DNA of 64,000 nucleotides from Bacteroidota bacterium (GCA_016183765.1 JACPEA010000007.1:152076-216075); one strand, 5' to 3'. Positions 18,692-61,499 are shown, numbered from the stretch's first letter. The notes: generated from the sequence alone by a model not told the origin. Program-made: numbers and translations.

Positions 18692-18702
18692 GTATTTCAG
18701 CA

Positions 18703-20314: not shown

Positions 20315-20336
20315 CAAGGCTTCTTATTTACTACTG

Positions 20337-20353
20337 GTGAACCGGATTGGATT
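20337..20353 (+). repeat. Left att core of the prophage (copy of the tRNA-Arg 3' end)
   Basis: GTGAACCGGATTGGATT, identical to 59640-59656. Confidence 0.93.
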
Positions 20354-20490
20354 AACAGGCATGTTTTCTGAAACCCTTTCCAGTACTGCGTTTCAGCCCC
20401 AACTATCAGATAACCAGTGAATTGTGGGTTTAAATCTATTCCCTCAAGTGTTATCCGGCGCAGAAAAGTGTAGTTAAAACCACTACTTTC

Positions 20491-20510
20491 GGTTAGGACA
20501 GCGTTAGGAA
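20491..20510 (+). other. Putative integrase arm-binding sites (left arm)
   Basis: GGTTAGGAC-AGCGTTAGGAA; AGCGTTAGGAA recurs at 59576-59586 inside the right end. Confidence 0.6.
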
Positions 20511-20512
20511 AA

Positions 20513-21313
20513 ATGAAACGATATAGTGTCAATCTCATTCTCTGGAGACACGACCCTGTCGGAGAGCTCAAAGATCAGTACCCAATTTACCTGAAAATTG
20601 TCGTTGAGGGAAAGAAATCTTACATCTCCACCGGAGTCGTTGTAAAGGCTATACAGTGGGATAGCAGTAATCAGTGCGTGGTGGCTCACCCGACCGCCCG
20701 GCTGCTTAACATGGATCTCACCAATCGCAAAAGCCAGGCTTTGCAGCGCATCATTAATTTGGAGCTGGGTGGAAAGGACTTCTCAGCCTTATCGCTGAAG
20801 CAGCAGCTGATAGGAACCAATCCATCCAACATCTTTGACTTCATCGATCGCTACTATGCTGAGGTGCGGGACAAACGTTCTACAGGTACTCTGATTCAGT
20901 ATCGCAAGCATCGAAACACACTCAAAGCCTTTCATGGTTCTGATGATCTTACCTTCGAACAGATAACTCCGGATTACCTGCTGAAGTTTGAGACACACCT
21001 GCGGAAGGAGATGAAGAACAATTACATCAACTCCATATTCAGGATGTACAAGGCCTTCTTCAATGCAGCCATCAAACGTGGTGTCACTACCAACTATCCT
21101 CTGCAGGGTGCAAATCCTGAAGACTGGGGTAAGCCTACAGCATTCGCTGCTGCCGGCGTACAGTACAGCGTCTATCTGCTCACCGGTGAGACCAGCGAAA
21201 GCTCTCCGACTCCGGTTGAAAAGCATGTAGACAAGAGCACTATCATCCTGGCTATTCCTTCCAATGGAGCAGCCAACGCTGATGTAGCTGTAAAAGGTAT
21301 CCTTGCCCTGTAA
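20513..21313 (+). pseudogene. Chimeric ORF: tyrosine integrase N-terminus (arm-binding + SAM-like core-binding domains) fused in frame at about 21100 to an unrelated 70 aa C-terminus, probably from a capsid-module gene
   Basis: YPIYLKIVVEGKKSYISTG (Bacteroidota arm-binding domain) and LTFEQITPDYLLKFETHL...FFNAAIKRG (SAM-like domain) stop at TNYP. There are no R-H-R-Y catalytic residues. The tail LQGANPEDWGK...TIILAIP is not integrase-like. Confidence 0.8.
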
Positions 21314-21344
21314 GCGTAGAGCACTTCTGTAACACTTTATATCC

Positions 21345-21376
21345 ACAGGCGGGGGTTTTCTCCGCCTGTTTTGTTA
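21345..21376 (+). terminator. Intrinsic terminator after the chimeric ORF
   Basis: ACAGGCGG-gggttttct-CCGCCTGT followed by tttgtt. Confidence 0.75.
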
Positions 21377-21398
21377 TACTTGAAAACACCTTGCACAG

Positions 21399-22040
21399 AT
21401 GACTCCAAACGAAATCACCACGCTGATCGCCTCAAACCTGGATAAGGAACTGGATATGCCTTTTAAACTCCAACTGATGGAGCGGGTGAAATACTGGCGC
21501 AGCCGGTTACTGGTCAATACCGTAAACAAGGATCCCTTCCAGCGACGGTTCTTCAAACAGACCCTGTATCTGACCATGGAGCCTTCTTCCAAGATTCGCT
21601 GTGCATCGCTGGTGAACATACCAGTGTCGGCCACACAGGTGGCAGTGCCGCAGGAGGTTATCGCCGGAAGCGTACAGTTCGACTACGTAGGTGGCGCAGA
21701 CGGTTCGTCTCCCTTTCAGCAACTGCAGGCCGGTACAGAGCTTTATCTCAGTAGCGGTAAATTCTACCCTCTCTGCGGACACTACGAATTCATCAACCGT
21801 TTCATAGTTACAGACAAGGAGCGATTACCGCTCATTCGCATTGACGCAATATTCGATGATCCTCAGTTGATACAGCAATTGAGTGCCGCTTGCACAGGAC
21901 AGACCTGCGACACGTGGAACCAGGAGTTTCCGGTAAACAATCAGATCATGCAACTGATCGTGCAGTCCATACTGCAGGTCGATTACAACCGTGCTGAGCG
22001 CGAGGATACTCCACAGATAGAAGTAAATAACACTAAATGA
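21399..22040 (+). CDS. crAss-like conserved virion structural protein (neck/ring or portal-vertex family)
   Basis: Resembles the conserved genes that follow the capsid genes in crAss-like phages (FDYVG..DG..PF; IRIDAIFDDP). Supported by position. Confidence 0.6.
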   Translation: MTPNEITTLIASNLDKELDMPFKLQLMERVKYWRSRLLVNTVNKDPFQRRFFKQTLYLTMEPSSKIRCASLVNIPVSATQVAVPQEVIAGSVQFDYVGGADGSSPFQQLQAGTELYLSSGKFYPLCGHYEFINRFIVTDKERLPLIRIDAIFDDPQLIQQLSAACTGQTCDTWNQEFPVNNQIMQLIVQSILQVDYNRAEREDTPQIEVNNTK

Positions 22041-22041
22041 T

Positions 22042-22656
22042 ATGGCAAAACAGATACTAAAACCAAGGATGATCTACTTGCGTGAGATATACACTCAATT
22101 CGCGCAGAGTGAACTGGATAAACATCCTGAGTGGTGGGGAAAATATGAACAGAAGGTCAAGCTTAAAAACTGCTACATCTACGCCAAGGAGCGGGATCAT
22201 GTGGTACTGAAGATGAGCTGGTACAGCTTCAAGGAGATAGTAGAAAGCTACTTCCACAAAGCAAAGGCCGCTATCATCCAGGGTGAAACACTTCGCATCG
22301 GGGCCAGTGTCGGTAAGATACGAGCCATACGTGTAGAGCGGAATTTCTCCAACCCGGTGATAGACTGGGTGAAGACCTACACCAACAAGGAGTTCGATGA
22401 GAAGGGTCACCTGATCAAACGCTACTATACGGACGAAGACTGGTGCAGAATAGAGTGGGAGAAATTCGGTGTACTCAGCAATGAGAGCATCTACAACTTT
22501 TACCCGGCCACCCGTAACATGGCCACCAATAAAGGGTTCAAAGCAGAGTTTGTACAAGCCTTGCGAAAAGACCCGCTGTTGAAGTTTAAATACAAGTTCT
22601 ACCCATACGTGAAGGTAGAACGCAAACAGACCAAAGATGAACTACAACCTCTGTAG
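22042..22656 (+). CDS. crAss-like IHF/HU-like DNA-binding protein
   Basis: FKEIVESYFHKAKAAIIQGETLRIGASVGKIRAIRVER resembles the HU/IHF fold. It sits just before the tail genes, as in crAss-like phages. Confidence 0.6.
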   Translation: MAKQILKPRMIYLREIYTQFAQSELDKHPEWWGKYEQKVKLKNCYIYAKERDHVVLKMSWYSFKEIVESYFHKAKAAIIQGETLRIGASVGKIRAIRVERNFSNPVIDWVKTYTNKEFDEKGHLIKRYYTDEDWCRIEWEKFGVLSNESIYNFYPATRNMATNKGFKAEFVQALRKDPLLKFKYKFYPYVKVERKQTKDELQPL

Positions 22657-23428
22657 CATGCGCGAAGTGATCGGAAGGATCATCCGTAACACACGGTTAC
22701 AGGATTCTTCCTTCATTGAAAGTATGCATGACTGGATATTCGAAGCTGTCTCCATGATGAAGACCAAGCAGACACTGCAGGGTGACTGGGAGGAGGTCAA
22801 CGTGGTGTTTCACAAAGGACAGTGGCCATGCGGACTGGTGTATGTCGACGCGGTCGAGTACAATGGTAACCGCCTGGTTCATGGAGGTAGCGTACGGCCG
22901 GCGGAGAAAGAGACGGCCTATCTCAATCCAGCGAATGGAGACATCTTCTTCTCAGAGGTGAACAAAGTGCCTACCACAGAGAACCACAGCATCTATGTTA
23001 CCAAGATGACCGAGGCCAGAAGCCTGCCTGCGGGTAAAGATTACTACACCACTGATACACCCGGTTACATTACCACTTCATTCGCTGATGGTAAAGTGAC
23101 GGTGTATTTCAGGCGTTACCCGGTGGATAAGGATGGCATACCGATGATCCCTGACAATGAGAACTTCAAGCAGGCCATCTACTGGTACGTACGAGCCATG
23201 ATGATCGGTGCAGGTTACCCCGATAAGGCATTCTCCTACGAGCAGTGCTTTGAAAAGTTTGAGAAACTCTATGCGCCCAGGGCTGTGGCTGAGATCCGGT
23301 ATCCGACACCGGACGAGATGGAGCACAGGGTCAACACGTTTGTACGATTCATGCCACCTCAGAACTATTACGACAACTTCTTCCGGAACGATTTCGGAGA
23401 AGGTATTTATGATACCAAAGTCTGGTAA
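22637..23428 (+). CDS. Tail tubular / ring protein (P22 gp4-like family of crAss-like phages)
   Basis: REVIGRIIRN...DWIFEA start; YITTSFADGKVTVYFRRYPVDKDGIPMIPDNENFKQAIYWYV; directly precedes the stabilization gene. Confidence 0.7.
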   Translation: MNYNLCSMREVIGRIIRNTRLQDSSFIESMHDWIFEAVSMMKTKQTLQGDWEEVNVVFHKGQWPCGLVYVDAVEYNGNRLVHGGSVRPAEKETAYLNPANGDIFFSEVNKVPTTENHSIYVTKMTEARSLPAGKDYYTTDTPGYITTSFADGKVTVYFRRYPVDKDGIPMIPDNENFKQAIYWYVRAMMIGAGYPDKAFSYEQCFEKFEKLYAPRAVAEIRYPTPDEMEHRVNTFVRFMPPQNYYDNFFRNDFGEGIYDTKVW

Positions 23429-23431
23429 GTA

Positions 23432-26400
23432 ATGCAAAACTTTAAACGCCTCTCCCGTGACACTCGTCTTCAGGAGCAACCTGAGGGAACCATACCGTTT
23501 GGTAAGAACGGGATCGTTAACTACGTGAAGAACGCAGTGTACAACGAGCCCGGCTTTATCCCATCGGCCAGCGTCATTCCTTACAAGTACAACGGGGTGA
23601 TAGAGACGGATAAGTATCCCATTATCTTCAGTACCAACGATGTCAATTCAGCGATCGGCTTCTACAATCCTGACGAGGATACTTATATTCCCATCCTCAA
23701 TGATGCAACCCTGCCATTCAAGTTGGGCTTTAAGGTAGCAAACTTCATCACCGGTCAGGTACAGCGTAACTACAAAGGGGAATTGGTAGGCGCTTTCACA
23801 GATAAGGTGCTGAACCCCTTCTACCTGAACTTTGACAATCCCCAGGTCACTTCGCTGCAGGATATGCTGCTGTTCCCGGGCACCCAATCCCCAACAGTGA
23901 ACATCGCGCTCACCAGCGGGGGAACTCTGTTGCCGGGAGCCTACTATGTAGCTGTCAAGCTTCTCAAGAATGACGGTACTGAGACGGCCTACCTGACGGT
24001 GAGTGCCCCACAGATCGTGAGCGGTACCACCAATACAGTGACCGATAAGGCCATCCAGGTATCAGTAAGCCAGATAGATACGGAATACGAACTGGTACAG
24101 CTGGCCATCATCCGCAAAACCAACGGAGTGACCTCTGTTGTACAGCTGGCCAGCCCCATCACCGCTTCTGCGAATCTGACCTATATCTATACCGGCAATG
24201 AGCTCAGTGAAGACATTACACTGGAAGAGGTACTGATCGCCCCGGCACATTACACCAGGGTGGAGACGATCGGCCAGTTGAACGATGCACTCTACATCAC
24301 GGGACTGGATTCAGAACCGGAAGAGCGCTTACAGAAATACGTGAACAAGATCCGCCTCAAATGGCACAGCAGTCTGCTGACCATCAGTCCTGCCAGCGAT
24401 GATCTGAAGAATAGCAAGGAGAAGACCTTCATGCACGATGAGGTGGGTGCTTTCTATATCCGATTCCGGAAGACATCCGGCGGCTTCACCAAGAACTTCC
24501 ATATACCTGGGCCAGCGCTAACCAGCGACCAGAAGTCTCCCTCTACAGTAGCTACTGCTGAGGGACTGGTGGCCAGCAAGTTCCAGGTGGATGATATCAT
24601 CACTGTCTTTGATGCTGCTTCTAAAAGTGGCTACTGCAGTGGGTATGCGAATGCCTCTGAAACCTATCCTAATACCGACGATTACAACTCCAGTGCTGTG
24701 GGCGGGGAAGATCTCCGCAACCAACCTGTAAGGCATCACCGATTCCCATCGATCCAGTGGTGCAAGGATAACCTCTACAGCGGTAATCCTGCCTACGGTA
24801 AAACGGCCCTGGATAAGCTGGGTATATCAGTGGAGAATATCGTACTGCCCAATAAGTACGCTTCAGCTTTCAACGGGTATGAGATACTGTATGCAAAGCG
24901 CAATATCGCCAATTCGACTGTACTGGGGCAGAGTCTCCTGCTGTTTGGCGCCAGGGCCAAGGGACAGACCGAATTCTCTCCGGCCAACTTCTACTCGACC
25001 GGCGGTAACTTTCACTCCGAGATCAACTACAAGAGCGGTGGTGATACTCTGTATGTAGACCAGAGCATCTTCCACCTGCATCCTTTCGATACACTATACA
25101 ACAGACCGGCTGTAAAGCCAGACTATCTTTCGCTGCAGTTACAGCTGAAGCGGGAACCGCTGACAACAACACCCAATCAGAACAGCGGTAGTTTCATAGA
25201 GGACGGCGGCCCGGATCAGGATCGCGGTACCGTGTTTCTGTTCGATTACATTACCAGCGGACTGACCCCCACCAGCCCAACCAAGAAGCTGAAAGCTGTC
25301 AAGGATACCCAGTACGTACCTAATCACGTGGAGATCGGTAAGTGGAAGAACAAGGGTATTGAGACCTTCTTCGGCGGACGGATAACCAATCCTGAGGCAT
25401 TGATAGCCAGCGGCAATGTGGACACCAACCAGGTATGGACAGATCGTGGCCGGCGTAAAGGAGTCACTACAGAGACCACCTTTCTGACCAACATGAAAGC
25501 CATTCGCTCCAATGTATACCTGCCCTTTACCGGTCAATCGCTGGTAAGAGCTGGAGTGTCCCCCAGCCTGACAGCGTCTCCCGTATTGTACGGCGGCGAC
25601 AGCTTCATCAGCGACTACACGTTCCACACATACGGCTCCTGGTCATTTGCCTACGGAGGTGACAACGAGAGCCAGAATAAGACAGGTACCATCACCGTGC
25701 GTAGGTTTATCTGTGAGACGGCCAGTAATCTGTACAGCCGTTTTGAGGACGCTGCAAATCCTTACAGCCGGTATTATCCCGTCAGTACCTTGGCCCCGGG
25801 AGACCCGAGCAACTACACCAGAACCTGGATCCGCTCCAGCGACCCTAATCAGTTTGGATACAGCAAGGACAGTAATGCACTGGATGACCTGATATCCACC
25901 TCTATATTCGACACCTACGTGGAAAGCGTGACATCGCACCCGTACCGGATACACCGTGGCGGTAAACTCAGCCGACAGACCAAGTTCAGAAGCTGGAAGA
26001 CCTTCCTGCCGCTGGATTACTACGAGATGCAGAAGAACATGGGCCGACCCGTCAACCTGGAAGGTATGGATGACCGGTTGCTGATCCACTGTGAGAACGC
26101 GCTGTTCCTTACACAGGATAAGGCCAAGCTGGAGAGCGACCTGATCGGTGTTACACTGGGCTCAGGAGATATTTTCCGCTTTGAGCCTCAGGAAGGACTG
26201 AGCGCCAAACTCGGTTATGCCGGTACCCAACATCAACTGGCCTGTGTGCGTACACCGTTTGGTTATGTATTCATAGACTCTGACCAGGGACAGTTGTTTC
26301 TGTACAAAGGAACACCGAAGCTGATCAATAACTGGATGAACACTTTCTTCCAGCAGTATCTCAGACTGAAGGAAATCAACGTCTTCAATGGTAATGGGTA

Positions 26401-28768: not shown

Positions 28769-29526
28769 CACCAGGATGCACCAACCCGGCAGCAGCGAAT
28801 TACAATCCTGCGGCGGATACAGAAGATTACAGCTGTATATACCTCAAACGGTATGACGGGACTTGTTATGCCTTTCAGGATGTACCACCCAGCGAGATCG
28901 AAGACAAGTCTTTCACGCTCTCGTTTTCGCTGGAAGAGATGGACTGGGTGATGTTCCATGACTACATCCCGGACTTCTACTTCAGTACCCGCAACAGGCT
29001 GTTCAACCTGAAAGGCAATAAGATATACAAGCATAACGCCGGAGCTCCCGGTGTATACCATAGTTCAACACCGAAGTCCTTTTTCATTGACATGGTATTC
29101 GCTGACAAGCAGGAGATGCTCCTGCGCAGTGTTGAGTGGATCACAGAGGTGATAGGTAACAACGTGGAGACCGAGATGTCGACGCTGACCCACATCACCA
29201 TCTGGAATGCTCAGCAGTGTACCGGCCGTATCGCACTGTCCAGCGTGTTTGATCAGCTGCAGTACAGCACACACAGAAAGACCCAGGGAAAGTGGTCTTT
29301 CAACCATATCCGGGACATGGTCAAGACCCGTGGAACTACCTTCCTGCTTGATATATTTAACAATTTTGCAGTGATTAGTAACTCAATTTCACAGACTAAG
29401 CCATGGTATGAAAAAGCCCTGTTATCCGATAACTACTTTGTGATACGCTTCGAATTCGATAACACCAGCGGTAAACAGATCTTCTTCCATGGTGCTGATA
29501 TTAATGATAAACTTACCCCACGATGA
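28765..29526 (+). CDS. C-terminal part of the muzzle/stabilization protein encoded as a separate gene
   Basis: ATGA overlap with the upstream stop (the ORF track starts at TTG 28759). It opens with a GCTNPAAANYNPAA..DYSC motif, then FTLSFS...WVMFHDYIPDFYFSTRNRLF...IYKHN, which resembles the C-terminal part of crAss-like stabilization proteins. Confidence 0.7.
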   Translation: MTPGCTNPAAANYNPAADTEDYSCIYLKRYDGTCYAFQDVPPSEIEDKSFTLSFSLEEMDWVMFHDYIPDFYFSTRNRLFNLKGNKIYKHNAGAPGVYHSSTPKSFFIDMVFADKQEMLLRSVEWITEVIGNNVETEMSTLTHITIWNAQQCTGRIALSSVFDQLQYSTHRKTQGKWSFNHIRDMVKTRGTTFLLDIFNNFAVISNSISQTKPWYEKALLSDNYFVIRFEFDNTSGKQIFFHGADINDKLTPR

Positions 29527-30404: not shown

Positions 30405-30409
30405 TCGTT

Positions 30410-38852: not shown

Positions 38853-39011
38853 TTTCTTTCGTGGCCACACAGCGTAGACAAATATCACCAGTAGTAAAAT
38901 TCCAAAAGCTTTGAGCCAAGAGAGCACCAGAGGATTCATAGCATGAGTTTAAATGGGGTAGAAAGATAGGTAACTATCCTTAAATTTAAAAACAGTATTA
39001 ATTGTAAGTGT

Positions 39012-50219: not shown

Positions 50220-50281
50220 CCGCTTACAAGCTGCATAGTATACAAAATAAGGGTTGAGAGTGCAAGGTACTTTTACGTACT

Positions 50282-51043
50282 ATGGCACTCCAACCCGTAC
50301 TAACATTAACTGAACTGGCCCCTGATGCCAGTTACCTGATAGTAAAAGACAATACAGGTGTGTATAATGCGCAGTCCAATCCTGGTGGATTTGGTACACC
50401 GAACCCTGCCAGTGCAGATGTAACTGCCGCCATATTTCACCTGTCGAGTTTTACAGACATCACAAAATCCTTTGGATACAGAGTAGGTACGTTTTCGTCC
50501 TTCTTAGCCAGCCAGATGAAGGCTACTGTAGGCACTTTTATGGGGATCAGTGATCGGGATGTATTCAGGGATGGGGTATACTCTATGAAGTACTACCTGG
50601 CTTTCGCTGTAGTTGATACGATAACCTTCGCTTCGGGTTCCAAGCAGTTTGCACTGACCAACGCTGACACGGTATTTGCTACAGGTGTTGGATTTGTGAT
50701 CCCATCCTTAAATGGCACCAAGGTCTATTTCATCGACCGTACGCAGCCGTTAACCAACAGCGGAGGATATGTCACAGAAGCCCTACCCACATTCACCGCA
50801 GCGAAAGCTATTGAGAAGGTGTATGAAGGTGATCTCAAATTCCTTAATGACAAAGCTGGTACCAACGGATTGAATGCAGATATCGCTGCAGCCTGTGACG
50901 ATAACTGTGATTGCATTGATGAGGAGTACAAGAATGTCTGGAAACGTTATACCTGGAAAGTAAGTATGGAGTCTAAGTTCTCCAGAAAGCTGTTCAGTGA
51001 AGCTCACACACTTGCTGTTGAACTTGAAAGCTACGCACTATAA
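50282..51043 (+). CDS. Phage tail hub / fibre-attachment-like structural protein
   Basis: DNTGVYNAQSNPGGFGTPNP and DGVYSMKY motifs as I recall them from Bacteroidota podovirus tail genes. Supported by position. Confidence 0.5.
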   Translation: MALQPVLTLTELAPDASYLIVKDNTGVYNAQSNPGGFGTPNPASADVTAAIFHLSSFTDITKSFGYRVGTFSSFLASQMKATVGTFMGISDRDVFRDGVYSMKYYLAFAVVDTITFASGSKQFALTNADTVFATGVGFVIPSLNGTKVYFIDRTQPLTNSGGYVTEALPTFTAAKAIEKVYEGDLKFLNDKAGTNGLNADIAAACDDNCDCIDEEYKNVWKRYTWKVSMESKFSRKLFSEAHTLAVELESYAL

Positions 51044-51786
51044 TGTTATTTCCTACACCACATATCAACACCAGCCAAAATACAGCATTGGAAAAGCTCA
51101 GTGACCTGGGCTATAACTATTTCCTGCGCGAAAAATATCAGCTGCATTTTGACAATAAGCATACGGATCGTAAGTACCTGCTGCTGTTGCAGGCTATCGG
51201 CTCCTGGGATAACCGCTCTGGCGCTGTCAATGCCTTCACTGAGGCTCAGCTTGCCAACATGCTCGACAGGTTAACCTGCGTTTCCAAGGATCCGCTGGTG
51301 AAATACCAGCCACCGGTTACCGGAGGTACCTGCGGTGTCGGTGGAACTACCGCCGGACTGGGATACGCAGCAGGTCTGAGTGGAAGCCTGAGCGGTATCA
51401 CCCTTGGCATTCTCAATACCCGCAGCATCAACCTGACACTGGTCAACGATACATTGTCAGCTAACACCAATGTATCCAATGTGAGCGGTAATGCTTTGAC
51501 AGTGCTTACCGATGGTTTGTACGTCACACAAGCTTCGACGGGTACCAGTAAGTTCATCCGGTCGGATGCATTTACAACCTCAACCCAGTATAACGATGTT
51601 TCGCTGAAGGATAAGCAGTTCGTGGTGACCTATCGCGGATATGGAGAGTTGTATTACAACTGGGCCAATCCCAGCGATCCTCTGAACGAGTTTCAACTGG
51701 TAGGTACAGGTGGGTTCAATATTACAATACCAGGATTCGATGTCACATTGGATCCTAATAACACCTTCCACATCCTGATACTATGA
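51043..51786 (+). CDS. Hypothetical phage tail-associated protein
   Basis: Intact ORF coupled to its neighbours; Gly-rich linker and beta-rich C-terminus. Confidence 0.5.
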   Translation: MLFPTPHINTSQNTALEKLSDLGYNYFLREKYQLHFDNKHTDRKYLLLLQAIGSWDNRSGAVNAFTEAQLANMLDRLTCVSKDPLVKYQPPVTGGTCGVGGTTAGLGYAAGLSGSLSGITLGILNTRSINLTLVNDTLSANTNVSNVSGNALTVLTDGLYVTQASTGTSKFIRSDAFTTSTQYNDVSLKDKQFVVTYRGYGELYYNWANPSDPLNEFQLVGTGGFNITIPGFDVTLDPNNTFHILIL

Positions 51787-54700
51787 AAAAAGTAATATCC
51801 ATACTGGTACTGATCGGGGTCTTGACACTGGCTTTCAGTCTTGGACTGCATGCGCAACCTGTCATGCAACGGGCTACCGGATCCACAACAGTGGCCGACA
51901 GTCGCCTGATGGTACAGTTGAACTTCTTTCTGCCTAAATATACCGATACTACCGTGGCCAACTCCAGCAAAGGAGTCGACAGTTGCGGGGCGTTGATATT
52001 CACCACCGATAACAAAATATGGGTTCGTGAATGTTCTCCAAAGCGCTGGGCCTATGTGGCCAGCGGCAATTACCTGAACAGTAAACTCAATATCAGTGAT
52101 ACGGCCAACATGCTGCAGACCTATGTAAGGGTGCAGCGTTTCCTGGATTCGCTGGTAGCTGTGCAGTTGCGTGTGCAGAGTAAGCAGCCTATTGGCAACT
52201 ATCTGCAAGCCGGCAACAATCTGGCTGATGTCAGTAACGTCAATACAGCTCGCAGTAACCTTGGCGTCTTCTCCAAAGCGGACACCACTGCCCCGGGCGG
52301 TATGTACCCGTGGAGTAACCCGCTGGGATTCCTCACATCAGCGACTGGTAGTTACCAACGCGTGAGTAAAGTTGACACACTATTTCCTGTCCGGGGAATT
52401 TTGGACTTTTCAGCTGAGTTCAATCTCACTGATTACCCTACAAAGACAACCGTGTCGATTGCACGGATTGCATCCAGTAAGATCACAGGTTTGGCTAATG
52501 GCGCTTACTTTGATACAACCTCTCTCATTCCACGTTTCAATCAACGGGTTCTATACTCTGATATAGCTGGGATGTTAGCCGGTTATCTACCACTATCCCT
52601 TCCATCAAGCAAAGCTGTAGTACTGAATGGAAACACATTGGATTTTTACGGTACAAATGGAGCGGGCCAATATACTTCAGGTAGGGTTGTAGTCTATCCT
52701 AACTTCGGTGGCGTTGGCTATCAGGTGGGTGGTAATTTTTATGGCTTGGCGGTAGATACACTTGGTATTGGGTCTTATTCAAGCCATGCAGGTAAGCCGC
52801 TTAACTACGCATCGAATTATTCCGCCAATATGGGCGATAATTCTCTCATAAATAGGCTGTATGCTGACGGCAGGTATATTAGCAAGACTGGTACGGACAC
52901 TATCTCAGGCGTTAAGACATTTACCGGATACCCGCTTACTTTAGATGGCACAACTCTTTCGTTAAAGAATTACACCAACATAAATATCTATGATGGTCAG
53001 CCTATCAACTGGAGAAGAACGAGCGATAATGCTTACATGGGTTATATTCAAGATAACCAAGTAGACGAGTGGCAATTTGATGCAACCCCTGGAGTACACA
53101 TGACTGTTCGCATTCCTGATATAAGGTTGGCAACAGGAACAAGTGGCAAGGTGAAGATCGGAGCAAATAGCGCAGCAGCACAAGCATTGGATGTGGTTGG
53201 TACTATTCGGCAATCATCTGTAGCATCTTCCGTTTTAAAGGCAAATGCGTCGGGTGATATAGTGGCTGCTGTGGCAGGTACAGATTATCAGGCAGCATTG
53301 GGCTTTACTCCCGAAAACGTTGCCAATAAGGGTGCCGCCAACGGATATGCGCCTATAGGATCCGATTCCAAGATAGCTACAACCTACCTGCCAGCTATCA
53401 CCATGAATAATGTGTTCACAGCGGCCAGCCAGTCGGCTATGTTAGCCCTTTCGGCGGTGGTGGGTGATATGTGTGTGCGCACGGATAGTACCATAACCTA
53501 TGTACTCCAGGTAGCAGCGCCTTCCAATCCGGCAGCATGGGTTAAGATACTAAGCCCATCGGCACCAGTTTCCTCTGTAAATGGGAAGACAGGAGTTGTG
53601 AGCCTGCTCACATCCGATATATCAGAGGGAGGCACATCCTACTATTGGACTGCAGCCAGATCCCGTGCTGCGCAATCAGTATCTGCTGTTGGTTTGACCT
53701 ATAACAATACCACAGGGGATATATCCATTACTGCAGGTTATGTGATACCTACCACCACAGATATCAGTAATGGGAATACGGCATATAGCAAGCGGGTAAC
53801 GGCGGTCGATCTGTCTGCCTCTACGCTTACGATCACTTTTGCTGATGCTTCAACAGTAACAGCTTCTGTACCTACATTCAACCAGAATACTACCGGCAAC
53901 GCTGGTACTGTTACAAACGGTGTTTATACAACAACATTCAATGGATTAGGTGATGCAAGGTATTTACAGCTAACTGGTGGGACATTAACAGGTGGGCTCG
54001 CCGGTACAACAGCATCATTTTCACTTGGAAATATTTCAGGTGGTATTGGTTCTGTAAAGAACCTAACTGTTACTAATACAAATGGTGCGGTTGGTGATTT
54101 TGCTGGATTAAACTTTGCATACTATAACAGTACAACAAATTTTGCGTACATAGGAACAGTTCTTACCAGTGCTGCATCTAATTCAGCAGCTGATTTAGTT
54201 TTCGGGGTTAAGGCAAATGCGTCTGCAACAACTGTTACAGAATACATGAGAATTGCTGTTGGTGGAGCAACAACTTGGGCAGGTAGCGGTACCTTTAGTG
54301 GTACAGTAACATCTGGTGTTGCTAAAATAGGTACTTGGTCTGCTTCATCAAGCTACGCTCGTTTCGGACATTCAAGCTACGATGTTGCAAGCAACTCTGG
54401 ATTTCTTCAAAGAAGTGATGGATTTTTATATCTTGAAGGTTCTTCTCTCTACGTGTCCGCTGTAGCAGGTTCAAGTGATGTTATAGTATATGCTGATAAT
54501 GGTGGTAAGATTGGGAAGATGGTTATCGGTTCTGGTCTATCATTTAGCGGAGGTACTCTATCAGCAACAGGTGGTTCTGCTGGTACTGTAACAGGTAGTG
54601 GTACTGTTGGATATATACCATTGTGGAATAGCGCAAGTGATATTGGTAATAGTCAGATAAGCCAAAGTGGGGGTTTAGTGAACATCAATGGTAACATACA

Positions 54701-55985
54701 ATTTGTTAACGCATATGTAACTTCCGGTTTCCAATTTAAATGGGGAGGTACTAACAGGGGTGGTATATACCAACTAAGTGCATGGACTGGTGGAGCTGCA
54801 AATTATAGCACAGTTATAGCAGCAGAAAGTGGATACGGTTTAAATCTCTACGTAGATGGAACTGCAACAAAAGGTTTTACAATAGCTACAACAGGTGCTG
54901 CCACTCTTACAGGTAGTGGAGTTGGAATTACGTACGTTAATACTGATGCTACATTTTACCATATATACAAAAGCGCAACAAGTACAGATAGAGGTTACAT
55001 AGGTAATGGAGCAAGTGTTTTTACTGGAGGTGCTGTAACAGATTTCGGTATTGGTGTGCCTTCTGGTGGGTCAGTAAACTTTGCGGTGGGAGGTACTGTG
55101 TACCAATCAATTGCTTCTACCGGAGCTACTACATTCTCATCATCAGTAACAGCATCATCGTTCTCTGGTGCAGGTACAGGATTAACTGGAACTGCAAGTA
55201 GTTTGACTGCTGGTTTTGCTACAAAATGGGGTAACGGTTCATACACATTTAACGAAGCTAATGCAGGAACTATTAGCGCTTTAGTTGTATTAGACGGCCC
55301 AAATGCTCAATACAGATTAAGCGCAAGTGTTTCTCAAGTACAAACATTCTTAGGTCTTGGCTCTGCTGCTTACTTAAACTCTAACCTTTCATCTTTCACA
55401 AACGATGCTGGATTTATTACTAATTCAACTTCAGGTTTAATTAATTACTACACTTCAACACAAATACAGAATTTTTTTGGTGGATCTTCTGCAATAACCG
55501 GTTACAACAAAACAAACTGGGATGCTGCGTACGGTTGGGGTAATCACGCTTCAGCAGGTTACTTGACATCATCTACTGCTGCATCAACTTATGTTCCTTA
55601 CAGTGGTGCAATTGGTAACGTAACGTTAGGAACGTATACTATGTCAGCAAGTGCTTTTTATGAAACATCTGATATACGCTTGAAAAAACTACATGAAGTT
55701 GTAATGAGTTCAGATGGTATAATGGCAATACAGTATACATTCAAACCATCTGGTGAAGACAAATGGGGTTACTCTGCACAACAAGTAAGAAATATACTTC
55801 CTTATGCTGTTCATGAAGATAGCGAAGGATGGCTGAAGGTTGATTACACAACAGTGCATACTTACAAAATCATGATGCTTGAGAAGCAAGTGGAGAAGCA
55901 GAATACCACTATCCAACAACAGATTAAAGTGATCGCCAGTTTCGAAGAGAGGATTTCTAAACTTGAAAAATTGTTAGAGAAATGA
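51783..55985 (+). CDS. Tail-fibre-like protein (1400 aa) with an N-terminal Sec-type signal peptide and a C-terminal intramolecular chaperone (Peptidase S74) domain
   Basis: Signal MKKVISILVLIGVLTLAFSLGLHA-Q. Fibre modules NKGAANGYAP and SSVNGKTGVVSL. C-terminal TSDIRLKK...WGYSAQQV..ILPYAV...LKVDY plus a coiled coil. Confidence 0.8.
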   Translation: MKKVISILVLIGVLTLAFSLGLHAQPVMQRATGSTTVADSRLMVQLNFFLPKYTDTTVANSSKGVDSCGALIFTTDNKIWVRECSPKRWAYVASGNYLNSKLNISDTANMLQTYVRVQRFLDSLVAVQLRVQSKQPIGNYLQAGNNLADVSNVNTARSNLGVFSKADTTAPGGMYPWSNPLGFLTSATGSYQRVSKVDTLFPVRGILDFSAEFNLTDYPTKTTVSIARIASSKITGLANGAYFDTTSLIPRFNQRVLYSDIAGMLAGYLPLSLPSSKAVVLNGNTLDFYGTNGAGQYTSGRVVVYPNFGGVGYQVGGNFYGLAVDTLGIGSYSSHAGKPLNYASNYSANMGDNSLINRLYADGRYISKTGTDTISGVKTFTGYPLTLDGTTLSLKNYTNINIYDGQPINWRRTSDNAYMGYIQDNQVDEWQFDATPGVHMTVRIPDIRLATGTSGKVKIGANSAAAQALDVVGTIRQSSVASSVLKANASGDIVAAVAGTDYQAALGFTPENVANKGAANGYAPIGSDSKIATTYLPAITMNNVFTAASQSAMLALSAVVGDMCVRTDSTITYVLQVAAPSNPAAWVKILSPSAPVSSVNGKTGVVSLLTSDISEGGTSYYWTAARSRAAQSVSAVGLTYNNTTGDISITAGYVIPTTTDISNGNTAYSKRVTAVDLSASTLTITFADASTVTASVPTFNQNTTGNAGTVTNGVYTTTFNGLGDARYLQLTGGTLTGGLAGTTASFSLGNISGGIGSVKNLTVTNTNGAVGDFAGLNFAYYNSTTNFAYIGTVLTSAASNSAADLVFGVKANASATTVTEYMRIAVGGATTWAGSGTFSGTVTSGVAKIGTWSASSSYARFGHSSYDVASNSGFLQRSDGFLYLEGSSLYVSAVAGSSDVIVYADNGGKIGKMVIGSGLSFSGGTLSATGGSAGTVTGSGTVGYIPLWNSASDIGNSQISQSGGLVNINGNIQFVNAYVTSGFQFKWGGTNRGGIYQLSAWTGGAANYSTVIAAESGYGLNLYVDGTATKGFTIATTGAATLTGSGVGITYVNTDATFYHIYKSATSTDRGYIGNGASVFTGGAVTDFGIGVPSGGSVNFAVGGTVYQSIASTGATTFSSSVTASSFSGAGTGLTGTASSLTAGFATKWGNGSYTFNEANAGTISALVVLDGPNAQYRLSASVSQVQTFLGLGSAAYLNSNLSSFTNDAGFITNSTSGLINYYTSTQIQNFFGGSSAITGYNKTNWDAAYGWGNHASAGYLTSSTAASTYVPYSGAIGNVTLGTYTMSASAFYETSDIRLKKLHEVVMSSDGIMAIQYTFKPSGEDKWGYSAQQVRNILPYAVHEDSEGWLKVDYTTVHTYKIMMLEKQVEKQNTTIQQQIKVIASFEERISKLEKLLEK

Positions 55986-56878
55986 GATACACAAAAACAG
56001 TACTAATCGCACTGCTTCTATGTATATGCTTGAGCTTCACCAGTTCTTATTATTGGTCATGGGCTGGACTTGCATCAAACCAAACTGTAAGTTGGGATAA
56101 TGCTAACAATGCTGTGACCAATGGGTATTTCGCTGCAAGAGGTGTGGCTGGAACGGGGTCAAAACAAATTACCAAATCGGAAGCGTTAACGTATTATTGG
56201 ATCAATCCACGTAATGCCACCCTGTGGGATAAGGCTAACAGTCAACTGGTTGTCAAACAAGATATCACCGCTGGAGACGTGTTGAACGCAAGTGGCACAT
56301 TATACTTCAGCAGTCAAGCAGGTCACACAACTTATGGGTGGGCTAATCCTTGTGCAGTTGGAACAACCGGAAGTGCAACTGTTTACTATCAATCTCCATT
56401 AGCGGTTAGTTCTAAATTATATGGAAGTGCAAGCTATGGATTATTCCTAAGTGACCCACCACTTAACACAGACTGGTTCAATCTTAATGGAACCCCTGTT
56501 AAGTTGGATACTTATGCATCTTACCCAGAAATGTACAGGTATGTTACAACCATTGGATACTGTGTGAGTGGTGGTATAACAAACAATACAGGAAGAACAA
56601 TATTCGTAACATTCGCAACTGGCGCACCGTGTTCAGATGTACTATACTTTACTGGTTCATATACCAGAGCAGCGGATGGACTAACCTACACATGGTATCT
56701 TAACTACAATGTCATATCAGGTAATACAGTACAAGCTACACAAACTGCAATTAGCGATTTAACAGGAGTTGCGTTAGTGTCTGGAGACGCTATTACACAG
56801 ATAAATGGTGGGGCAACCATTACGGAGTATATCTGTAGCAGTAATGCACAAATAGTTCTTTCTAATCCTTTACCGTAA
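55982..56878 (+). CDS. Hypothetical exported protein in the fibre block
   Basis: Hydrophobic signal MRYTKTVLIALLLCICLSFTS; Cys- and Thr-rich beta protein. Confidence 0.6.
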   Translation: MRYTKTVLIALLLCICLSFTSSYYWSWAGLASNQTVSWDNANNAVTNGYFAARGVAGTGSKQITKSEALTYYWINPRNATLWDKANSQLVVKQDITAGDVLNASGTLYFSSQAGHTTYGWANPCAVGTTGSATVYYQSPLAVSSKLYGSASYGLFLSDPPLNTDWFNLNGTPVKLDTYASYPEMYRYVTTIGYCVSGGITNNTGRTIFVTFATGAPCSDVLYFTGSYTRAADGLTYTWYLNYNVISGNTVQATQTAISDLTGVALVSGDAITQINGGATITEYICSSNAQIVLSNPLP

Positions 56879-56891
56879 ATAAACAGATAAC

Positions 56892-57290
56892 ATGAAAATC
56901 TTAACAGTATTACTGAGCCTGATGTTAACGCTCACATCTTCTGCCAGCGAAATCCATCCTACAGCTGTGACTGTAACCGCTCAGGTGAGTTCCACTGTAA
57001 TGAGTGAGACGCTGGTGATCCCCAAAGGTGCAAAGCAGATCAATCCTGTCGTTGTAACCTTCAAGGGAGACTCCGCTTACTCAGTGAGCTGGGTTGTCAA
57101 CAAGATCACCAGCGACACCACGGTGGACAGTTATGGTGAGGTATACCTTAACGGCAAGCAAGGTTATCCTATCGTACAGTTCGGTATCACTATTCCGAAA
57201 GCGATCATCAATAGTTGGGGACTGGACAACTCTTCCATTGATGACTTCATATTCAAACTACCCGAGATGAAACGTTTCGTTCGTAAATAA
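56892..57290 (+). CDS. Hypothetical exported protein
   Basis: Signal MKILTVLLSLMLTLTSSA. Confidence 0.6.
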   Translation: MKILTVLLSLMLTLTSSASEIHPTAVTVTAQVSSTVMSETLVIPKGAKQINPVVVTFKGDSAYSVSWVVNKITSDTTVDSYGEVYLNGKQGYPIVQFGITIPKAIINSWGLDNSSIDDFIFKLPEMKRFVRK

Positions 57291-57319
57291 TTTATCACTT
57301 AAACCCTAAATCACAGATC

Positions 57320-57673
57320 ATGAAAACAGTAGTATTATTCTGCATCGCAGCATTTATCACCACAGCATCTTTTGGCCAGGAAAAGTCTAAAGGAGACACA
57401 CTCTACATCGACTTTTCGAAAGTTCAAACGATCATATTCACGGACAGCTCTAAGCAAAAGAAGCCCGTGAAAGCTTACAACACAGAAGCCCTGGTAAAAG
57501 GTGACGTGTTGATTGCTACCAAACAGTACTGGTATCAGCTCTTGGTATTCATGAAAGGCAGCAAGAATGGAGATTTCACACAGCAACAGACCGAGCAGTT
57601 GCAGCAGCCTTTCTATGAGTATGCCGTTGAATGGGAGAAAATACTGCAGCAGAGTACACAACCAAAGAAGTAA
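57320..57673 (+). CDS. Hypothetical exported protein
   Basis: Signal MKTVVLFCIAAFITTASFG-Q. Confidence 0.6.
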   Translation: MKTVVLFCIAAFITTASFGQEKSKGDTLYIDFSKVQTIIFTDSSKQKKPVKAYNTEALVKGDVLIATKQYWYQLLVFMKGSKNGDFTQQQTEQLQQPFYEYAVEWEKILQQSTQPKK

Positions 57674-57707
57674 ACCGTAAACTATAACCCCCTTATACTC
57701 TAAACCC

Positions 57708-58205
57708 ATGAAAAGCCTACTCACTATCAGCGTTTTGACCTTACTGAACATCAAATTGAATTTCCTTCCAACAGGTACTCTTATGGCCGCAATGGCTGCC
57801 TCCATTGTGCTTGACTTTGTAACCGGGCTTATCAAAGCTGTTATTGCCAAAGACGCCAGAACCAGCCAGGGATACCGTAAAACAGTTGTCAAGTTTATGC
57901 AGTATGGCGGTGCTGTATGTGTGAGTATGCTGATGAAATTCCTGATGATGAGATCCGGAGAGACAGCCATGCAGGCTATCAGTCCGTATGCAGACTATCT
58001 GAACAATGGCCTGCTGATATTCATCCTCTTCATTGAGATCACTTCTATTCTGGAGAATATGTACGCGATCGATAACTCCAGTCCATTCGCTCAGTACTTC
58101 ATCAAGCCCTTGCTTTCTATTATGACTGTAGCTATCAAGAACAATTCCATTGCGAAGAAAGCTGCAGAACAGATGGAAGCTAAGGACCAAACTCCAACAT
58201 CATGA
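57708..58205 (+). CDS. Holin (phage_holin_4_1-like)
   Basis: IVLDFVTGLIKA...TSQGYRKTVVKF...FIEITSILEN; three TM segments. Confidence 0.85.
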   Translation: MKSLLTISVLTLLNIKLNFLPTGTLMAAMAASIVLDFVTGLIKAVIAKDARTSQGYRKTVVKFMQYGGAVCVSMLMKFLMMRSGETAMQAISPYADYLNNGLLIFILFIEITSILENMYAIDNSSPFAQYFIKPLLSIMTVAIKNNSIAKKAAEQMEAKDQTPTS

Positions 58206-58849
58206 AATCAAATAATCTACCATCCCCCTTACCACTGTTACTACTGCTGACGGCTATCTTAACGATAGCCTTCAGTTCTTGCGGGGTAACCAACAAGAAC
58301 AGATCGAGCAGCAGTTCACAAGTGGACAGCAGTAACACAGAGGTCAATAAGGAAACTGATTTATTCTGGAGTGAAGCAGCCCGTAAGTATGGTTTAACAA
58401 CTAAACACAGTGGCTTTACTTTCAAGATAGATTCCAGTTACCTGAAGCTTCGGTTCTATCCTTCTGACTCAGTGAATAACACCGGGCCAGTAGTGATATC
58501 GCAGGACTCTACCGGTAAGACAGTAATAGATCCTGGTGGCCGCAAATTGAAATCTGTTGAAGACAGCCGTAAAAAGACAACTGCTACCGGTAACCTGAAT
58601 ACCAGTGTTGGTAATGATTCTACCGTTACCTCTTACCTGGCATCCAAAACCAGAAGCGATAGTTCCAGTACAACAGTAAGTAAGAAAGCCAAGACCACGG
58701 AGGCAAAGACCTTTCGCTGGCAGCCGCCGTGGTATGCGTATCCGCTGGTGATCGCAGCCTTACTTGCTATCTGGAAATTCAGATTATACCGTCGTAATAA
58801 ATCAGAGGCAGTCATTCCTTACTCATCACCTAACGATACTGCAGTATGA
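58202..58849 (+). CDS. Lipoprotein with C-terminal TM helix, unimolecular-spanin-like
   Basis: Lipobox AFSS-C, Ser/Thr-rich body, and C-terminal WYAYPLVIAALLAIWKF followed by basic residues. It lies between the holin and the endolysin. Confidence 0.65.
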   Translation: MKSNNLPSPLPLLLLLTAILTIAFSSCGVTNKNRSSSSSQVDSSNTEVNKETDLFWSEAARKYGLTTKHSGFTFKIDSSYLKLRFYPSDSVNNTGPVVISQDSTGKTVIDPGGRKLKSVEDSRKKTTATGNLNTSVGNDSTVTSYLASKTRSDSSSTTVSKKAKTTEAKTFRWQPPWYAYPLVIAALLAIWKFRLYRRNKSEAVIPYSSPNDTAV

Positions 58850-59472
58850 TACTGTCTACGGTACTCTCCAGACAAACTCCGGTAACAATTGCCAGCGCCA
58901 GGTCGCTGGAAGCGTATCAGGAAAGTTGGAACAACATGGTCATCCGGGAGGTCATGCGCCCACAGATTGTCAACTGTGCCAAGCAGATTGCCAAGTATCG
59001 TCGCAATTTCGAGCTGGCAGTCAATGGCACCAAAGTACCATGGCAATTCGCAGGTATCATTTATTTCCGGGAAGATGGATTGCAGTTCAAGGGACATCCG
59101 CATAACGGGGACTCACTTCGCAGGCGTACAGTGAATGTACCGGCCGGCAGACCAGTGGCAAGTCCTAAGTATGCAGATGGTTATTCCTTCATGGAGAGCT
59201 TCGCTGATCTGATAGCACTCAAGCGCTGGGATAAAGTACCGGTATGGAATATGCCATCACTGTTATACTACTTTGAATCCAACAATGGATTTGGCTACAG
59301 AAGGTTGCATAACCCCATCATGACACCTTATCTGTGGTCAGGAACCAACTACTACACCAGTGGTAAGTTCATAGCAGATGGCCACTATGATCAGCAAACA
59401 GTAGACAAGCAGGTAGGAGCTGCTCCTTTGCTGCGCTACCTGACAGATAAAACCCTCGGAATTATTGATTGA
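58846..59472 (+). CDS. Endolysin, lysozyme-family (COG5526-like)
   Basis: VPWQFAGIIYFRE...HNGDSL...TVNVPAGRP...NNGFGY...PYLWSGTNYY..GKFIADG. Confidence 0.8.
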   Translation: MILSTVLSRQTPVTIASARSLEAYQESWNNMVIREVMRPQIVNCAKQIAKYRRNFELAVNGTKVPWQFAGIIYFREDGLQFKGHPHNGDSLRRRTVNVPAGRPVASPKYADGYSFMESFADLIALKRWDKVPVWNMPSLLYYFESNNGFGYRRLHNPIMTPYLWSGTNYYTSGKFIADGHYDQQTVDKQVGAAPLLRYLTDKTLGIID

Positions 59473-59505
59473 TTAGTTTTCTTATATAGCAGTTAAATTG
59501 GTATC

Positions 59506-59532
59506 GGCCTGGTGTTCTCACCGGGCCTTTTT
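59506..59532 (+). terminator. Intrinsic terminator of the late/lysis operon
   Basis: GGCCTGGTG-ttct-CACCGGGCC followed by TTTTT. Confidence 0.8.
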
Positions 59533-59575
59533 ACGGATAGGAAGTGAGGTGTGGATAAATATACCAGATTAGGGG

Positions 59576-59586
59576 AGCGTTAGGAA
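59576..59586 (+). other. Putative integrase arm-binding site (right arm)
   Basis: AGCGTTAGGAA, identical to 20500-20510. Confidence 0.6.
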
Positions 59587-59639
59587 CTTTTCAAACTGCG
59601 TTGTATCTGATTGATAATCAACGCAGTCTGAAATAAGTT

Positions 59640-59656
59640 GTGAACCGGATTGGATT
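59640..59656 (+). repeat. Right att core (overlaps the tRNA-Arg 3' end)
   Basis: GTGAACCGGATTGGATT, identical to 20337-20353. Confidence 0.93.
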
Positions 59657-59714
59657 CGAACCAATGACCTGCTGCTTAGAAGGCAGCTGCTCTATCCAGC
59701 TGAGCTACCGGTCC
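59641..59714 (-). tRNA. tRNA-Arg (anticodon UCU), CCA not encoded
   Basis: GGACCGGTAGCTCAGCTGGATAGAGCAGCTGCCTTCTAAGCAGCAGGTCATTGGTTCGAATCCAATCCGGTTCA folds as a cloverleaf with anticodon loop CTTCTAA. Confidence 0.97.
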
Positions 59715-61437: not shown

Positions 61438-61499
61438 GGGCTTTGTTTCGATTTGTTTGATCAGGAGTAGTTGGGGAAGCAGTTCCTTGATTAGAGGGT

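What the first reader, a model, noticed from the sequence alone, without database searches (positions are those of the whole stretch)
20337..59656. A crAss-like phage integrated as a prophage in tRNA-Arg(UCU)
Seen: a perfect 17 bp direct repeat GTGAACCGGATTGGATT (20337-20353 and 59640-59656) equals the tRNA 3' end. An integrase 5' part starts 160 bp inside the left att, and an 11 bp arm-like repeat AGCGTTAGGAA sits inside both ends. The gene order is IHF-like, tail tube, muzzle, cargo proteins, giant DFDxD virion RNAP, fibres, lysis. Established: this order and the virion RNAP are hallmarks of Crassvirales-type podoviruses, which are mostly described as non-integrating (lytic or carrier state). 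Inference: a temperate, site-specifically integrating crAss-like lineage infects environmental Bacteroidota.
Basis: partly seen in the sequence, partly recalled or inferred. Interest (0 to 1): 0.88.

Follow-up and report, generated by a model that had tools for sequence, protein, structure and literature searches.

The report
Deleted crAss-like prophage remnant in tRNA-Arg
A Chitinophagaceae chromosome carries the tail, RNA-polymerase and lysis half of a crAss-like phage, inserted at a tRNA-Arg gene and later crippled by one large deletion, which is direct evidence that some relatives of the "non-integrating" crAss phages do integrate.

Summary
A perfect 17-bp direct repeat, equal to the 3' end of tRNA-Arg(TCT), brackets window 20337-59656. 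An integrase 5' part starts 160 bp inside the left repeat. The genes inside are crAss-like: CrAss_Ring_1 at 120 bits, and a giant RNA polymerase whose only solved-structure match is 6VR4.

It is not a whole prophage. It is a 39.3-kb remnant of a phage of about 90 kb. ORF 20513-21313 is an in-frame chimera. Integrase residues 1-189 (arm-binding and SAM-like domains, no catalytic domain) are joined at about nt 21080 to the last ~77 residues of the head-module gene that precedes Ring 2 in relatives. Terminase, portal, capsid and all early genes are absent from the whole genome.

Both att junctions and the deletion junction recur at 99.98-100% identity in contigs from at least six other sequencing runs, so this is not a misassembly.

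The two closest complete relatives (87 and 91 kb, terminal repeats) each carry a different tyrosine integrase. Beside it lies a conserved block holding the first 47 nt of a Chitinophagaceae tRNA-Gly(CCC), flanked by repeats. This supports a temperate, tRNA-integrating crAss-like lineage.

The parts
20337..20353 (.). attL core: displaced 17-bp copy of the tRNA-Arg 3' end
   Evidence: Exact repeat, two copies in the window and in the genome.
20354..20512 (+). P' arm of the former attP, with tandem arm-type repeats GGTTAGGAC-AGCGTTAGGAA at 20492-20510 and ACTGCGTT at 20385
   Evidence: Motifs shared with the other arm; 0.7% of shuffles share an 11-mer.
20513..21313 (+). Chimeric ORF (266 aa): integrase residues 1-189 (Arm-DNA-bind_5, Phage_int_SAM_5) fused in frame to the C-terminal ~77 residues of the crAss-like head-module gene that precedes Ring 2
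   Evidence: Pfam. The tail is 62% identical to the end of the G041 330-aa protein and also matches the L004 322-aa protein. The identical ORF is on 8 other contigs.
21074..21085 (+). Deletion junction (...FFNAAIKR | GVTTNYP...), about 50 kb missing
   Evidence: Alignments to full-length integrases and to crAss-like 322/330-aa proteins cross over here.
21399..22040 (+). Tail ring protein 2-like
   Evidence: PF25702 at 23.6 bits, below the cut-off of 27. It is 53-55% identical to the Ring 2 genes of L004 and G041.
22042..22656 (+). Homologue of phi14:2 g073 (annotated 'IHF subunit')
   Evidence: Pairwise E 5e-6. No Pfam or PDB hit.
22637..23428 (+). Tail ring protein 1 (the 'tail tubular protein' of older annotations)
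   Evidence: PF24228 at 120 bits. PDB 7QOG crAss001 gp43.
23432..29526 (+). Muzzle-type protein (1778 aa, with cadherin, PA14-like and DUF5977 additions) plus a 255-aa continuation
   Evidence: phrog_15100, and 57% identity over 1784 aa to G041.
29523..38852 (+). Four virion internal or cargo-type proteins (293, 320, 741 and 1751 aa)
   Evidence: Syntenic and full-length against G041 and L004. The crAss_CARG1 and internal-virion-protein hits are weak.
39012..50219 (+). Single 3735-aa virion RNA polymerase ORF (GADFDVDK at aa 1625); it corresponds to two genes in G041 (2357 and 1517 aa) and to phi14:2 g066 (no significant match to g065)
   Evidence: PDB 6VR4 at E 2.8e-27, the only hit. phrog_16227. 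tblastn hits are to Crassvirales only. Motif alignment.
50282..51786 (+). Two conserved late proteins (253 and 247 aa)
   Evidence: 36-42% identical to the G041 genes that follow its RNAP.
51783..57673 (+). Tail fibre (1400 aa) and three small followers
   Evidence: phrog_33119 tail-fibre C-terminus.
57708..59472 (+). Holin (165 aa) and two unassigned proteins (215 and 208 aa) that end the late operon
   Evidence: PF05105 Phage_holin_4_1.
59473..59639 (+). P arm of the former attP, with GATTAGGGG-AGCGTTAGGAA at 59568-59586 and the inverted repeat ACTGCGTT/AACGCAGT
59640..59714 (-). Intact tRNA-Arg(TCT); its last 17 nt (59640-59656) are the attR core
   Evidence: ARAGORN. Logan contig L148 is 100% identical across 57543-63472.

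Best explanation
[quoted passage not shown] Integration used a heterobivalent tyrosine integrase of the Bacteroidota type, with an arm-binding, a SAM-like and a catalytic domain. Its attP had a 17-bp core identical to the tRNA end and TTAGG-type arm repeats on both sides. Integration produced attL (20337) and attR (59640) and rebuilt the tRNA.

Later, one illegitimate in-frame deletion of about 50 kb joined integrase codon ~189 to the last ~77 codons of the head-module gene upstream of Ring 2. This removed the integrase catalytic domain, the whole early and replication region, and terminase, portal and capsid genes.

What remains is a 39.3-kb cryptic prophage: tail rings, muzzle, internal proteins, virion RNAP, fibre and holin, all still open. 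It cannot excise, replicate or package.

Shown: the repeats, the crAss-like identity, the chimeric junction, the absence of the other genes, and the reproducibility of the junctions. Inferred: that the phage's own integrase did the integration, the original size, and that the remnant is inert.
For: The repeat equals the tRNA 3' end and has only two copies in the genome.

crAss-like identity: CrAss_Ring_1 at 120 bits; the RNAP hits only 6VR4; Ring 1 hits crAss001 gp43; all GenBank hits are Crassvirales.

The chimera: the integrase alignment stops at ...AAIKR, and from GVTTNYP on the ORF is 62% identical to the C-terminus of the 330-aa gene upstream of Ring 2 in G041. It also matches the L004 322-aa protein.

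G041 (91 kb, terminal repeats) is collinear with the window from that gene through the two genes after the RNAP. Its TerL, portal, MCP and early genes have no match anywhere in the own genome. The phi14:2 markers are also absent.

The chimeric ORF with both flanks is on 8 Logan contigs from at least 6 runs at 99.98% identity or more. The attR side is on 9 contigs, two of them checked at 100% identity.

The two arms share arm-type repeats, so they belong to one attP.

Only the two closest of 27 IMG/VR relatives carry a tyrosine integrase. It lies at the end of the late operon in G041 (the position was not mapped in G044), beside a 66-nt block that is 100% conserved between them. The block contains nt 1-47 of a tRNA-Gly(CCC) found in Chitinophagaceae genomes, and it is flanked by CGTTAACGnnATCGTTAA repeats.

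No Ring 1 gene is found in 40 relatives, and only 3 of 401 genomes of the order have one.
Against: No intact copy of this phage, no full-length copy of this integrase and no attP junction was found. The nearest integrases are 41-44% identical, and one sits in a non-crAss phage.

The integrases of G041 and G044 are unrelated to the window's integrase N-terminus, so they support the lifestyle, not this particular integrase.

No same-species empty attB is available. In sister species the far side of the tRNA is not syntenic.

A low-GC Lamassu island abuts attL, so the locus is a composite hotspot.

All 19 remaining ORFs are intact, which fits a very recent deletion but also fits selection.

Reads could not be mapped.
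Confidence: 0.8

Rival explanations
1. The integrase fragment and the att sites belong to an unrelated integrative element that occupied tRNA-Arg. The crAss-like DNA entered by other recombination events, so the crAss-like phage itself was never an integrase-carrying temperate phage.
For: The window's integrase N-terminus has no crAss-linked relative. Its nearest full-length homologue with DNA in hand (P0110, locus L014) lies in a non-crAss temperate phage. The locus is a hotspot with a neighbouring island.
Against: This needs at least two junctions. Only one is visible, and it is a clean in-frame fusion to the gene that precedes Ring 2 in collinear relatives. The 167-bp arm next to the crAss lysis genes shares arm-type repeats with the arm next to the integrase. 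The closest relative places its integrase and candidate attP at the same position, the end of the late operon.
Confidence: 0.08
2. The remnant is not just decaying. It is retained because it does something for the host, for example superinfection exclusion, a tail-derived particle, or the truncated arm-binding integrase acting as a DNA-binding regulator.
For: All 19 ORFs are open and full-length against G041, including ORFs of 3735, 1778, 1751 and 1400 aa. The fusion is in frame. The same structure is seen in runs from two accession series.
Against: All copies are 99.98-100% identical, so there has been no time for decay, and open frames carry no information on selection. The element is absent from all 40 relatives searched. 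There are no capsid or assembly genes, and no known promoter logic without the early genes.
Confidence: 0.08
3. It is an intact, inducible crAss-like prophage.
For: att repeats, a late operon without stops, and a holin.
Against: There is no integrase catalytic domain. There are no TerL, portal, MCP or replication genes in the element or anywhere in the genome. The element is 39 kb, against 87-91 kb for complete relatives.
Confidence: 0.01
4. It is an assembly chimera of host and phage contigs.
For: The sequence occurs in metagenome runs, and tRNA genes are typical break or join points. Some Logan contigs end close to the att cores.
Against: attL with the deletion junction, and attR with hutH and GlnRS, were each assembled independently by another assembler in several runs at 99.98-100% identity.
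Confidence: 0.02

Closest known systems
Cellulophaga phage phi14:2 (Crassvirales, Steigviridae) and the Flavobacterium FpV4-type phages: cultured crAss-like phages of environmental Bacteroidota
   Same: The block g074 - g073 ('IHF') - g072 (ring/tube) - g071 - ... - g067 - g066 RNAP - g065 is in the same order. The RNAP catalytic motif aligns (GADFDVDK against GSDFDIDK). 6VR4 is the only PDB hit.
   Different: Identity is only 21-28%. Those phages have about 88-100 kb, no integrase, and are not integrated. Here the two RNAP genes form one ORF, fibres and lysis genes follow the RNAP, and the head, packaging and early halves are missing.
IMG/VR genomes IMGVR_UViG_3300002307_000002 (91,265 bp) and IMGVR_UViG_3300025423_000001 (87,118 bp), both uncultured with direct terminal repeats
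   Same: These are the closest relatives. The first, G041, is 30-62% identical in protein and collinear from the 330-aa gene to the genes after the RNAP. Only the integrase region of the second, G044, was compared. Each has a tyrosine integrase, at the end of the late operon in G041, and a tRNA-derived block next to it.
   Different: They are complete and unintegrated. Their integrase is unrelated to the window's and is oriented against the late operon in G041. Their candidate target is tRNA-Gly(CCC), of which they carry the 5' 47 nt, not the 3' end of tRNA-Arg(TCT).
Incomplete epsilon-crAss-like prophage sequences in Parabacteroides distasonis and P. merdae (Viruses 2024, PMC11054128)
   Same: Incomplete crAss-like DNA inside a Bacteroidota chromosome.
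   Different: That paper found no integrase and does not report att sites. Here the att repeats, the tRNA target, the integrase remnant and the exact deletion junction are all resolved, and the host is an environmental Chitinophagaceae.
Classical tRNA-integrating temperate phages with lambda-type heterobivalent tyrosine integrases (own knowledge)
   Same: A core identical to the tRNA 3' end that restores the gene, arm-type repeats on both arms, and the integrase next to attP.
   Different: The cargo is a crAss-type podovirus with a virion RNAP, a group described as virulent, carrier-state or phage-plasmid (PMC6235969; bioRxiv 10.1101/2024.03.20.585998).

Membership tests
crAss-like phages (Crassvirales type) | Tail module with Ring 1, Ring 2 and muzzle proteins in the conserved order | tested here: met
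   PF24228 at 120 bits. PF25702 at 23.6 bits (below cut-off), but the ORF is 55% identical to relatives' Ring 2. PDB 7QOG gp43. Collinear with phi14:2, L004 and G041.
crAss-like phages (Crassvirales type) | Giant virion RNA polymerase of the phi14:2 gp66 type with a DxDxD centre | tested here: met
   6VR4 is the only PDB match, at E 2.8e-27. GADFDVDK aligns with gp66 GSDFDIDK. No N4-type hit.
crAss-like phages (Crassvirales type) | crAss-type major capsid, portal and large terminase, the genes used for classification | tested here: not met
   Absent from the element and from the whole genome. They are present in the collinear relatives (L004 MCP = PF23898 Crass_capsid; G041). Placement in a family is therefore not possible from the window.
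crAss-like phages (Crassvirales type) | Bacteroidota host | tested here: met
   Flanking genes are closest to Ferruginibacter and Chitinophagaceae genomes.
Site-specifically integrated prophage in a tRNA gene | Direct repeats identical to the tRNA end at both borders, with the tRNA left intact | tested here: met
Site-specifically integrated prophage in a tRNA gene | Complete integrase next to an att site | tested here: not met
   Only the arm-binding and SAM-like domains remain. The catalytic domain is deleted.
Site-specifically integrated prophage in a tRNA gene | Unoccupied attB in related genomes | tested here: inconclusive
   tRNA-Arg(TCT) next to hutH is conserved in three sister species without phage genes. 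In G018 GlnRS follows the tRNA 3' end after 92 bp. However, the flanks are rearranged and no same-species genome is held.
Site-specifically integrated prophage in a tRNA gene | Junction reads and excision products (attP, attB) | not testable with these tools
The attL/attP 27-mer is absent from IMG/VR and the JGI metagenomes.
Intact, inducible prophage | Packaging, head and replication genes present | tested here: not met

The most novel reading that the evidence does not exclude
Environmental Chitinophagaceae host a clade of genuinely temperate crAss-like phages. They carry interchangeable tyrosine-integrase modules at the end of the late operon and integrate into different tRNA genes: the 3' end of Arg-TCT here, and Gly-CCC through a 5'-side attP in the two complete IMG/VR genomes. 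This would be the first att-resolved case of integrative lysogeny in the crAss-like group.
Probability: 0.6. Interest if true: 0.75.

Novelty: new variant of a known kind. Interest (0 to 1): 0.64.

Why it matters
crAss-like phages are the most abundant phages of the human gut, and their lifestyle is a long-standing puzzle. The crAss001 paper states there is no evidence that any crAss-like phage occurs as a prophage (PMC6235969). The prototypic crAssphage was recently described as a non-integrating phage-plasmid (bioRxiv 10.1101/2024.03.20.585998). A 2024 report of two incomplete prophages found no integrase (PMC11054128).

This locus gives a base-resolved integration scar: an att core in a tRNA, arm repeats and an integrase remnant. 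Together with two complete relatives that carry an integrase and a tRNA-derived candidate attP, it makes integrative lysogeny in this group directly testable. It also shows how such a prophage is disabled by a single deletion.

Tried and rejected
Searches that found nothing or could not run:
- The intact phage: the attL/attP 27-mer is absent from IMG/VR and the JGI metagenomes.
- A Ring 1 single-protein scan of IMG/VR found nothing. The alignment-based scan did work.
- A Ring 1 alignment scan of the GTDB genomes found nothing.
- The nearest full-length integrases are only 41-44% identical. One lies in a non-crAss phage, and the other has no DNA held.

Rejected ideas:
- The rest of the phage lies elsewhere in the genome.
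- The G041 and G044 integrases are orthologues of the window's.
- The 86-kb contig of G146 is an integrated relative. It is a distant, free crAss-like contig.

Weakly supported only: 'IHF-like' for ORF 22042-22656 has no Pfam or PDB support. It rests on homology to phi14:2 g073, which is so annotated. No endolysin could be recognised.
Full report
**Observation.** The 17-mer GTGAACCGGATTGGATT occurs at 20337-20353 and 59640-59656 and nowhere else in the window (0 expected). It has no other copy in the 3.67-Mb, 17-contig genome. ARAGORN places tRNA-Arg(TCT) on the minus strand at 59640-59714, so the repeat is the tRNA's 3' end. AGCGTTAGGAA occurs at 20500 and 59576. Only 0.7% of shuffles of the two ~160-bp arms share an 11-mer. 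In both arms it is the second unit of a tandem pair (GGTTAGGAC-AGCGTTAGGAA and GATTAGGGG-AGCGTTAGGAA), and ACTGCGTT is shared too. All large ORFs between the repeats are on the plus strand.

**Identity of the element.**
- ORF 22637-23428 is CrAss_Ring_1 (120 bits against a cut-off of 27) and hits crAss001 Ring protein 1 gp43 in the PDB.
- ORF 21399-22040 is Ring 2-like. It is below the Pfam cut-off but 53-55% identical to relatives' Ring 2.
- ORF 22042-22656 is homologous to phi14:2 g073, annotated 'IHF subunit'.
- The 3735-aa ORF hits only 6VR4, the phi14:2 gp66 RNA polymerase (E 2.8e-27). Its GADFDVDK at aa 1625 aligns with gp66 GSDFDIDK.
- All tblastn hits of the RNAP, muzzle and Ring 1 in 50,697 GenBank phage records are crAss-like phages, at 21-28% identity, and none is N4-like.
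- The order matches phi14:2 g074 to g065.
- A holin lies at 57708-58205. No endolysin was recognised.

**It is a remnant.** ORF 20513-21313 has Arm-DNA-bind_5 and Phage_int_SAM_5 but no catalytic domain. Against full-length integrases (P0109, P0110) the alignment holds up to ...FFNAAIKR. From GVTTNYP to the stop the ORF matches the C-terminus of the gene just upstream of Ring 2 in crAss-like relatives. It is 62% identical to the 330-aa protein of G041 and matches the 322-aa protein of L004 at E 2e-27. The crossover is at about nt 21080 and is in frame. Both parents read K-(R/-)-x-V..YP there, a short similarity that fits illegitimate recombination.

The closest complete genome is G041 (IMG/VR, 91,265 bp, terminal repeats). 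Its order is TerL, portal, MCP, three further genes ending in the 330-aa gene, Ring 2, the g073 homologue, Ring 1, muzzle..., RNAP (two genes), 271 aa, 240 aa, fibre, then the integrase. The early genes are on the other strand. The window is collinear with it from the 330-aa gene's C-terminus to the 240-aa gene. Nothing else of G041 matches the own genome, apart from a host polymerase paralogue. The phi14:2 MCP, portal and TerL are also absent. About 50 kb is therefore missing from a phage of about 90 kb. The remaining ORFs align full-length, so there is no further decay.

**Not an artefact.** The exact 266-aa chimera, with the same left flank and the same tail genes, is on 8 Logan contigs from at least 6 runs, at 99.98% identity or more. 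The last phage gene is on 9 contigs. L148 is 100% identical from the holin through the tRNA into hutH and GlnRS.

**Host and site.** The flanks are housekeeping genes: TsaD, FtsY and RF2 on the left, and hutH and GlnRS on the right. Their closest named genomes are Ferruginibacter and Chitinophagaceae. None of 40 relatives has a Ring 1 gene. Only 3 of 401 genomes of the order do: the own genome, G146 with a free 86-kb distant crAss-like contig, and G170 with a 4.6-kb contig. In three sister species tRNA-Arg(TCT) lies next to hutH without phage genes. In G018 GlnRS follows the tRNA 3' end after 92 bp. The flanks are rearranged, however, so this is not a strict empty-site test.

**Is the lineage temperate?** Of 27 IMG/VR relatives found with a Ring 1 alignment, only the two closest complete genomes, G041 and G044, carry a tyrosine integrase. 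It is unrelated to the window's integrase N-terminus. In G041 it sits at the equivalent place, the end of the late operon; its position in G044 was not mapped. Upstream of both integrases is a 66-nt block that is 100% conserved in otherwise diverged DNA. The block contains nt 1-47 of a tRNA-Gly(CCC) and is flanked by CGTTAACGnnATCGTTAA repeats. Genuine tRNA-Gly(CCC) genes of three Chitinophagaceae genomes match 46 nt of it with 1-2 mismatches, and the similarity continues to nt 47. This looks like an attP, although carrying the 5' part of a tRNA is unusual. I treat it as a candidate only.

**Literature.**
- The crAss001 paper states that there is no evidence that crAss-like phages occur as prophages (PMC6235969).
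- Yutin et al. 2021 only speculate about integrated crAss-like prophages (PMC7886860).
- The crAssphage phage-plasmid study found no integration.
- A 2024 paper reports two incomplete epsilon-type prophages and no integrase (PMC11054128).
- Phrase searches found no description of an att-resolved crAss-like prophage. The library lacks many subscription journals.

**Verdict.** The interpretation needs one correction: this is a decapitated prophage remnant, not a prophage. That a crAss-like phage integrated here through its own integrase is the most economical reading (about 0.8). The main rival is that the integrase and att sites come from another element (about 0.08).

Noticed in passing
window 12600-20330: A low-GC island (33% against 47%) directly left of attL. 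It carries a complete Lamassu system: LmuA 17383-18471, LmuC 16877-17386 and LmuB 15025-16887, with PADLOC E-values from 1e-161 to 3e-53. In Pfam terms this is ABC-3C MC2/CTD6. The island also has an FtsK-gamma-HNH protein (12813-13661), two unassigned ORFs, and an 85%-identical 54-nt repeat at 13746 and 18590. No integrase was recognised.
   Followed up: partly
L045 (G041 79280-79346) and L044: Two complete crAss-like IMG/VR genomes share a 66-nt, 100% conserved block upstream of their integrase. It holds the first 47 nt of a tRNA-Gly(CCC) and is flanked by CGTTAACGnnATCGTTAA repeats. This is a candidate attP that carries the 5' rather than the 3' part of a tRNA.
   Followed up: partly
window 39012-50219: The virion RNAP is one 3735-aa ORF here, but two genes in G041 (2357 and 1517 aa) and in phi14:2 (g066, g065). 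An HELLH zincin-type motif sits at aa 2426, in the part that corresponds to the second gene.
   Followed up: partly
window 30093/30094 against L008 9432-9527: A Logan contig from SRR21614642 is otherwise 99.98% identical but has 96 extra bases (32 aa) in ORF 29523-30404, an internal or cargo-type protein. This is an in-frame length polymorphism within the population.
   Followed up: no
L013 (window 20334-21322) and L149 (window 56700-59669): Two short Logan contigs end within 3 nt and 13 nt of the att cores. This could reflect branching of the assembly graph at the att sites (other forms in the sample), or simply conserved tRNA sequence in a metagenome.
   Followed up: no
window 23432-28768: The muzzle-type protein carries cadherin (aa 1183-1242), PA14-like and DUF5977 (aa 1715-1778) domains. 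The G041 homologue aligns over the full length.
   Followed up: no
G146:C4 (L061-L067): Another genome of the same order contains an 86,145-bp contig with distant crAss-like MCP, portal, TerL and Ring 1, and no host-like DNA. It is probably a free or co-assembled phage genome.
   Followed up: partly
L014 (ENA ERZ27336874 NODE_269): The nearest full-length homologue of the window's integrase with DNA in hand (41% identical) sits in a non-crAss temperate phage. Its order is fibre, lysis (Glyco_hydro_19), HTH genes, integrase.
   Followed up: partly
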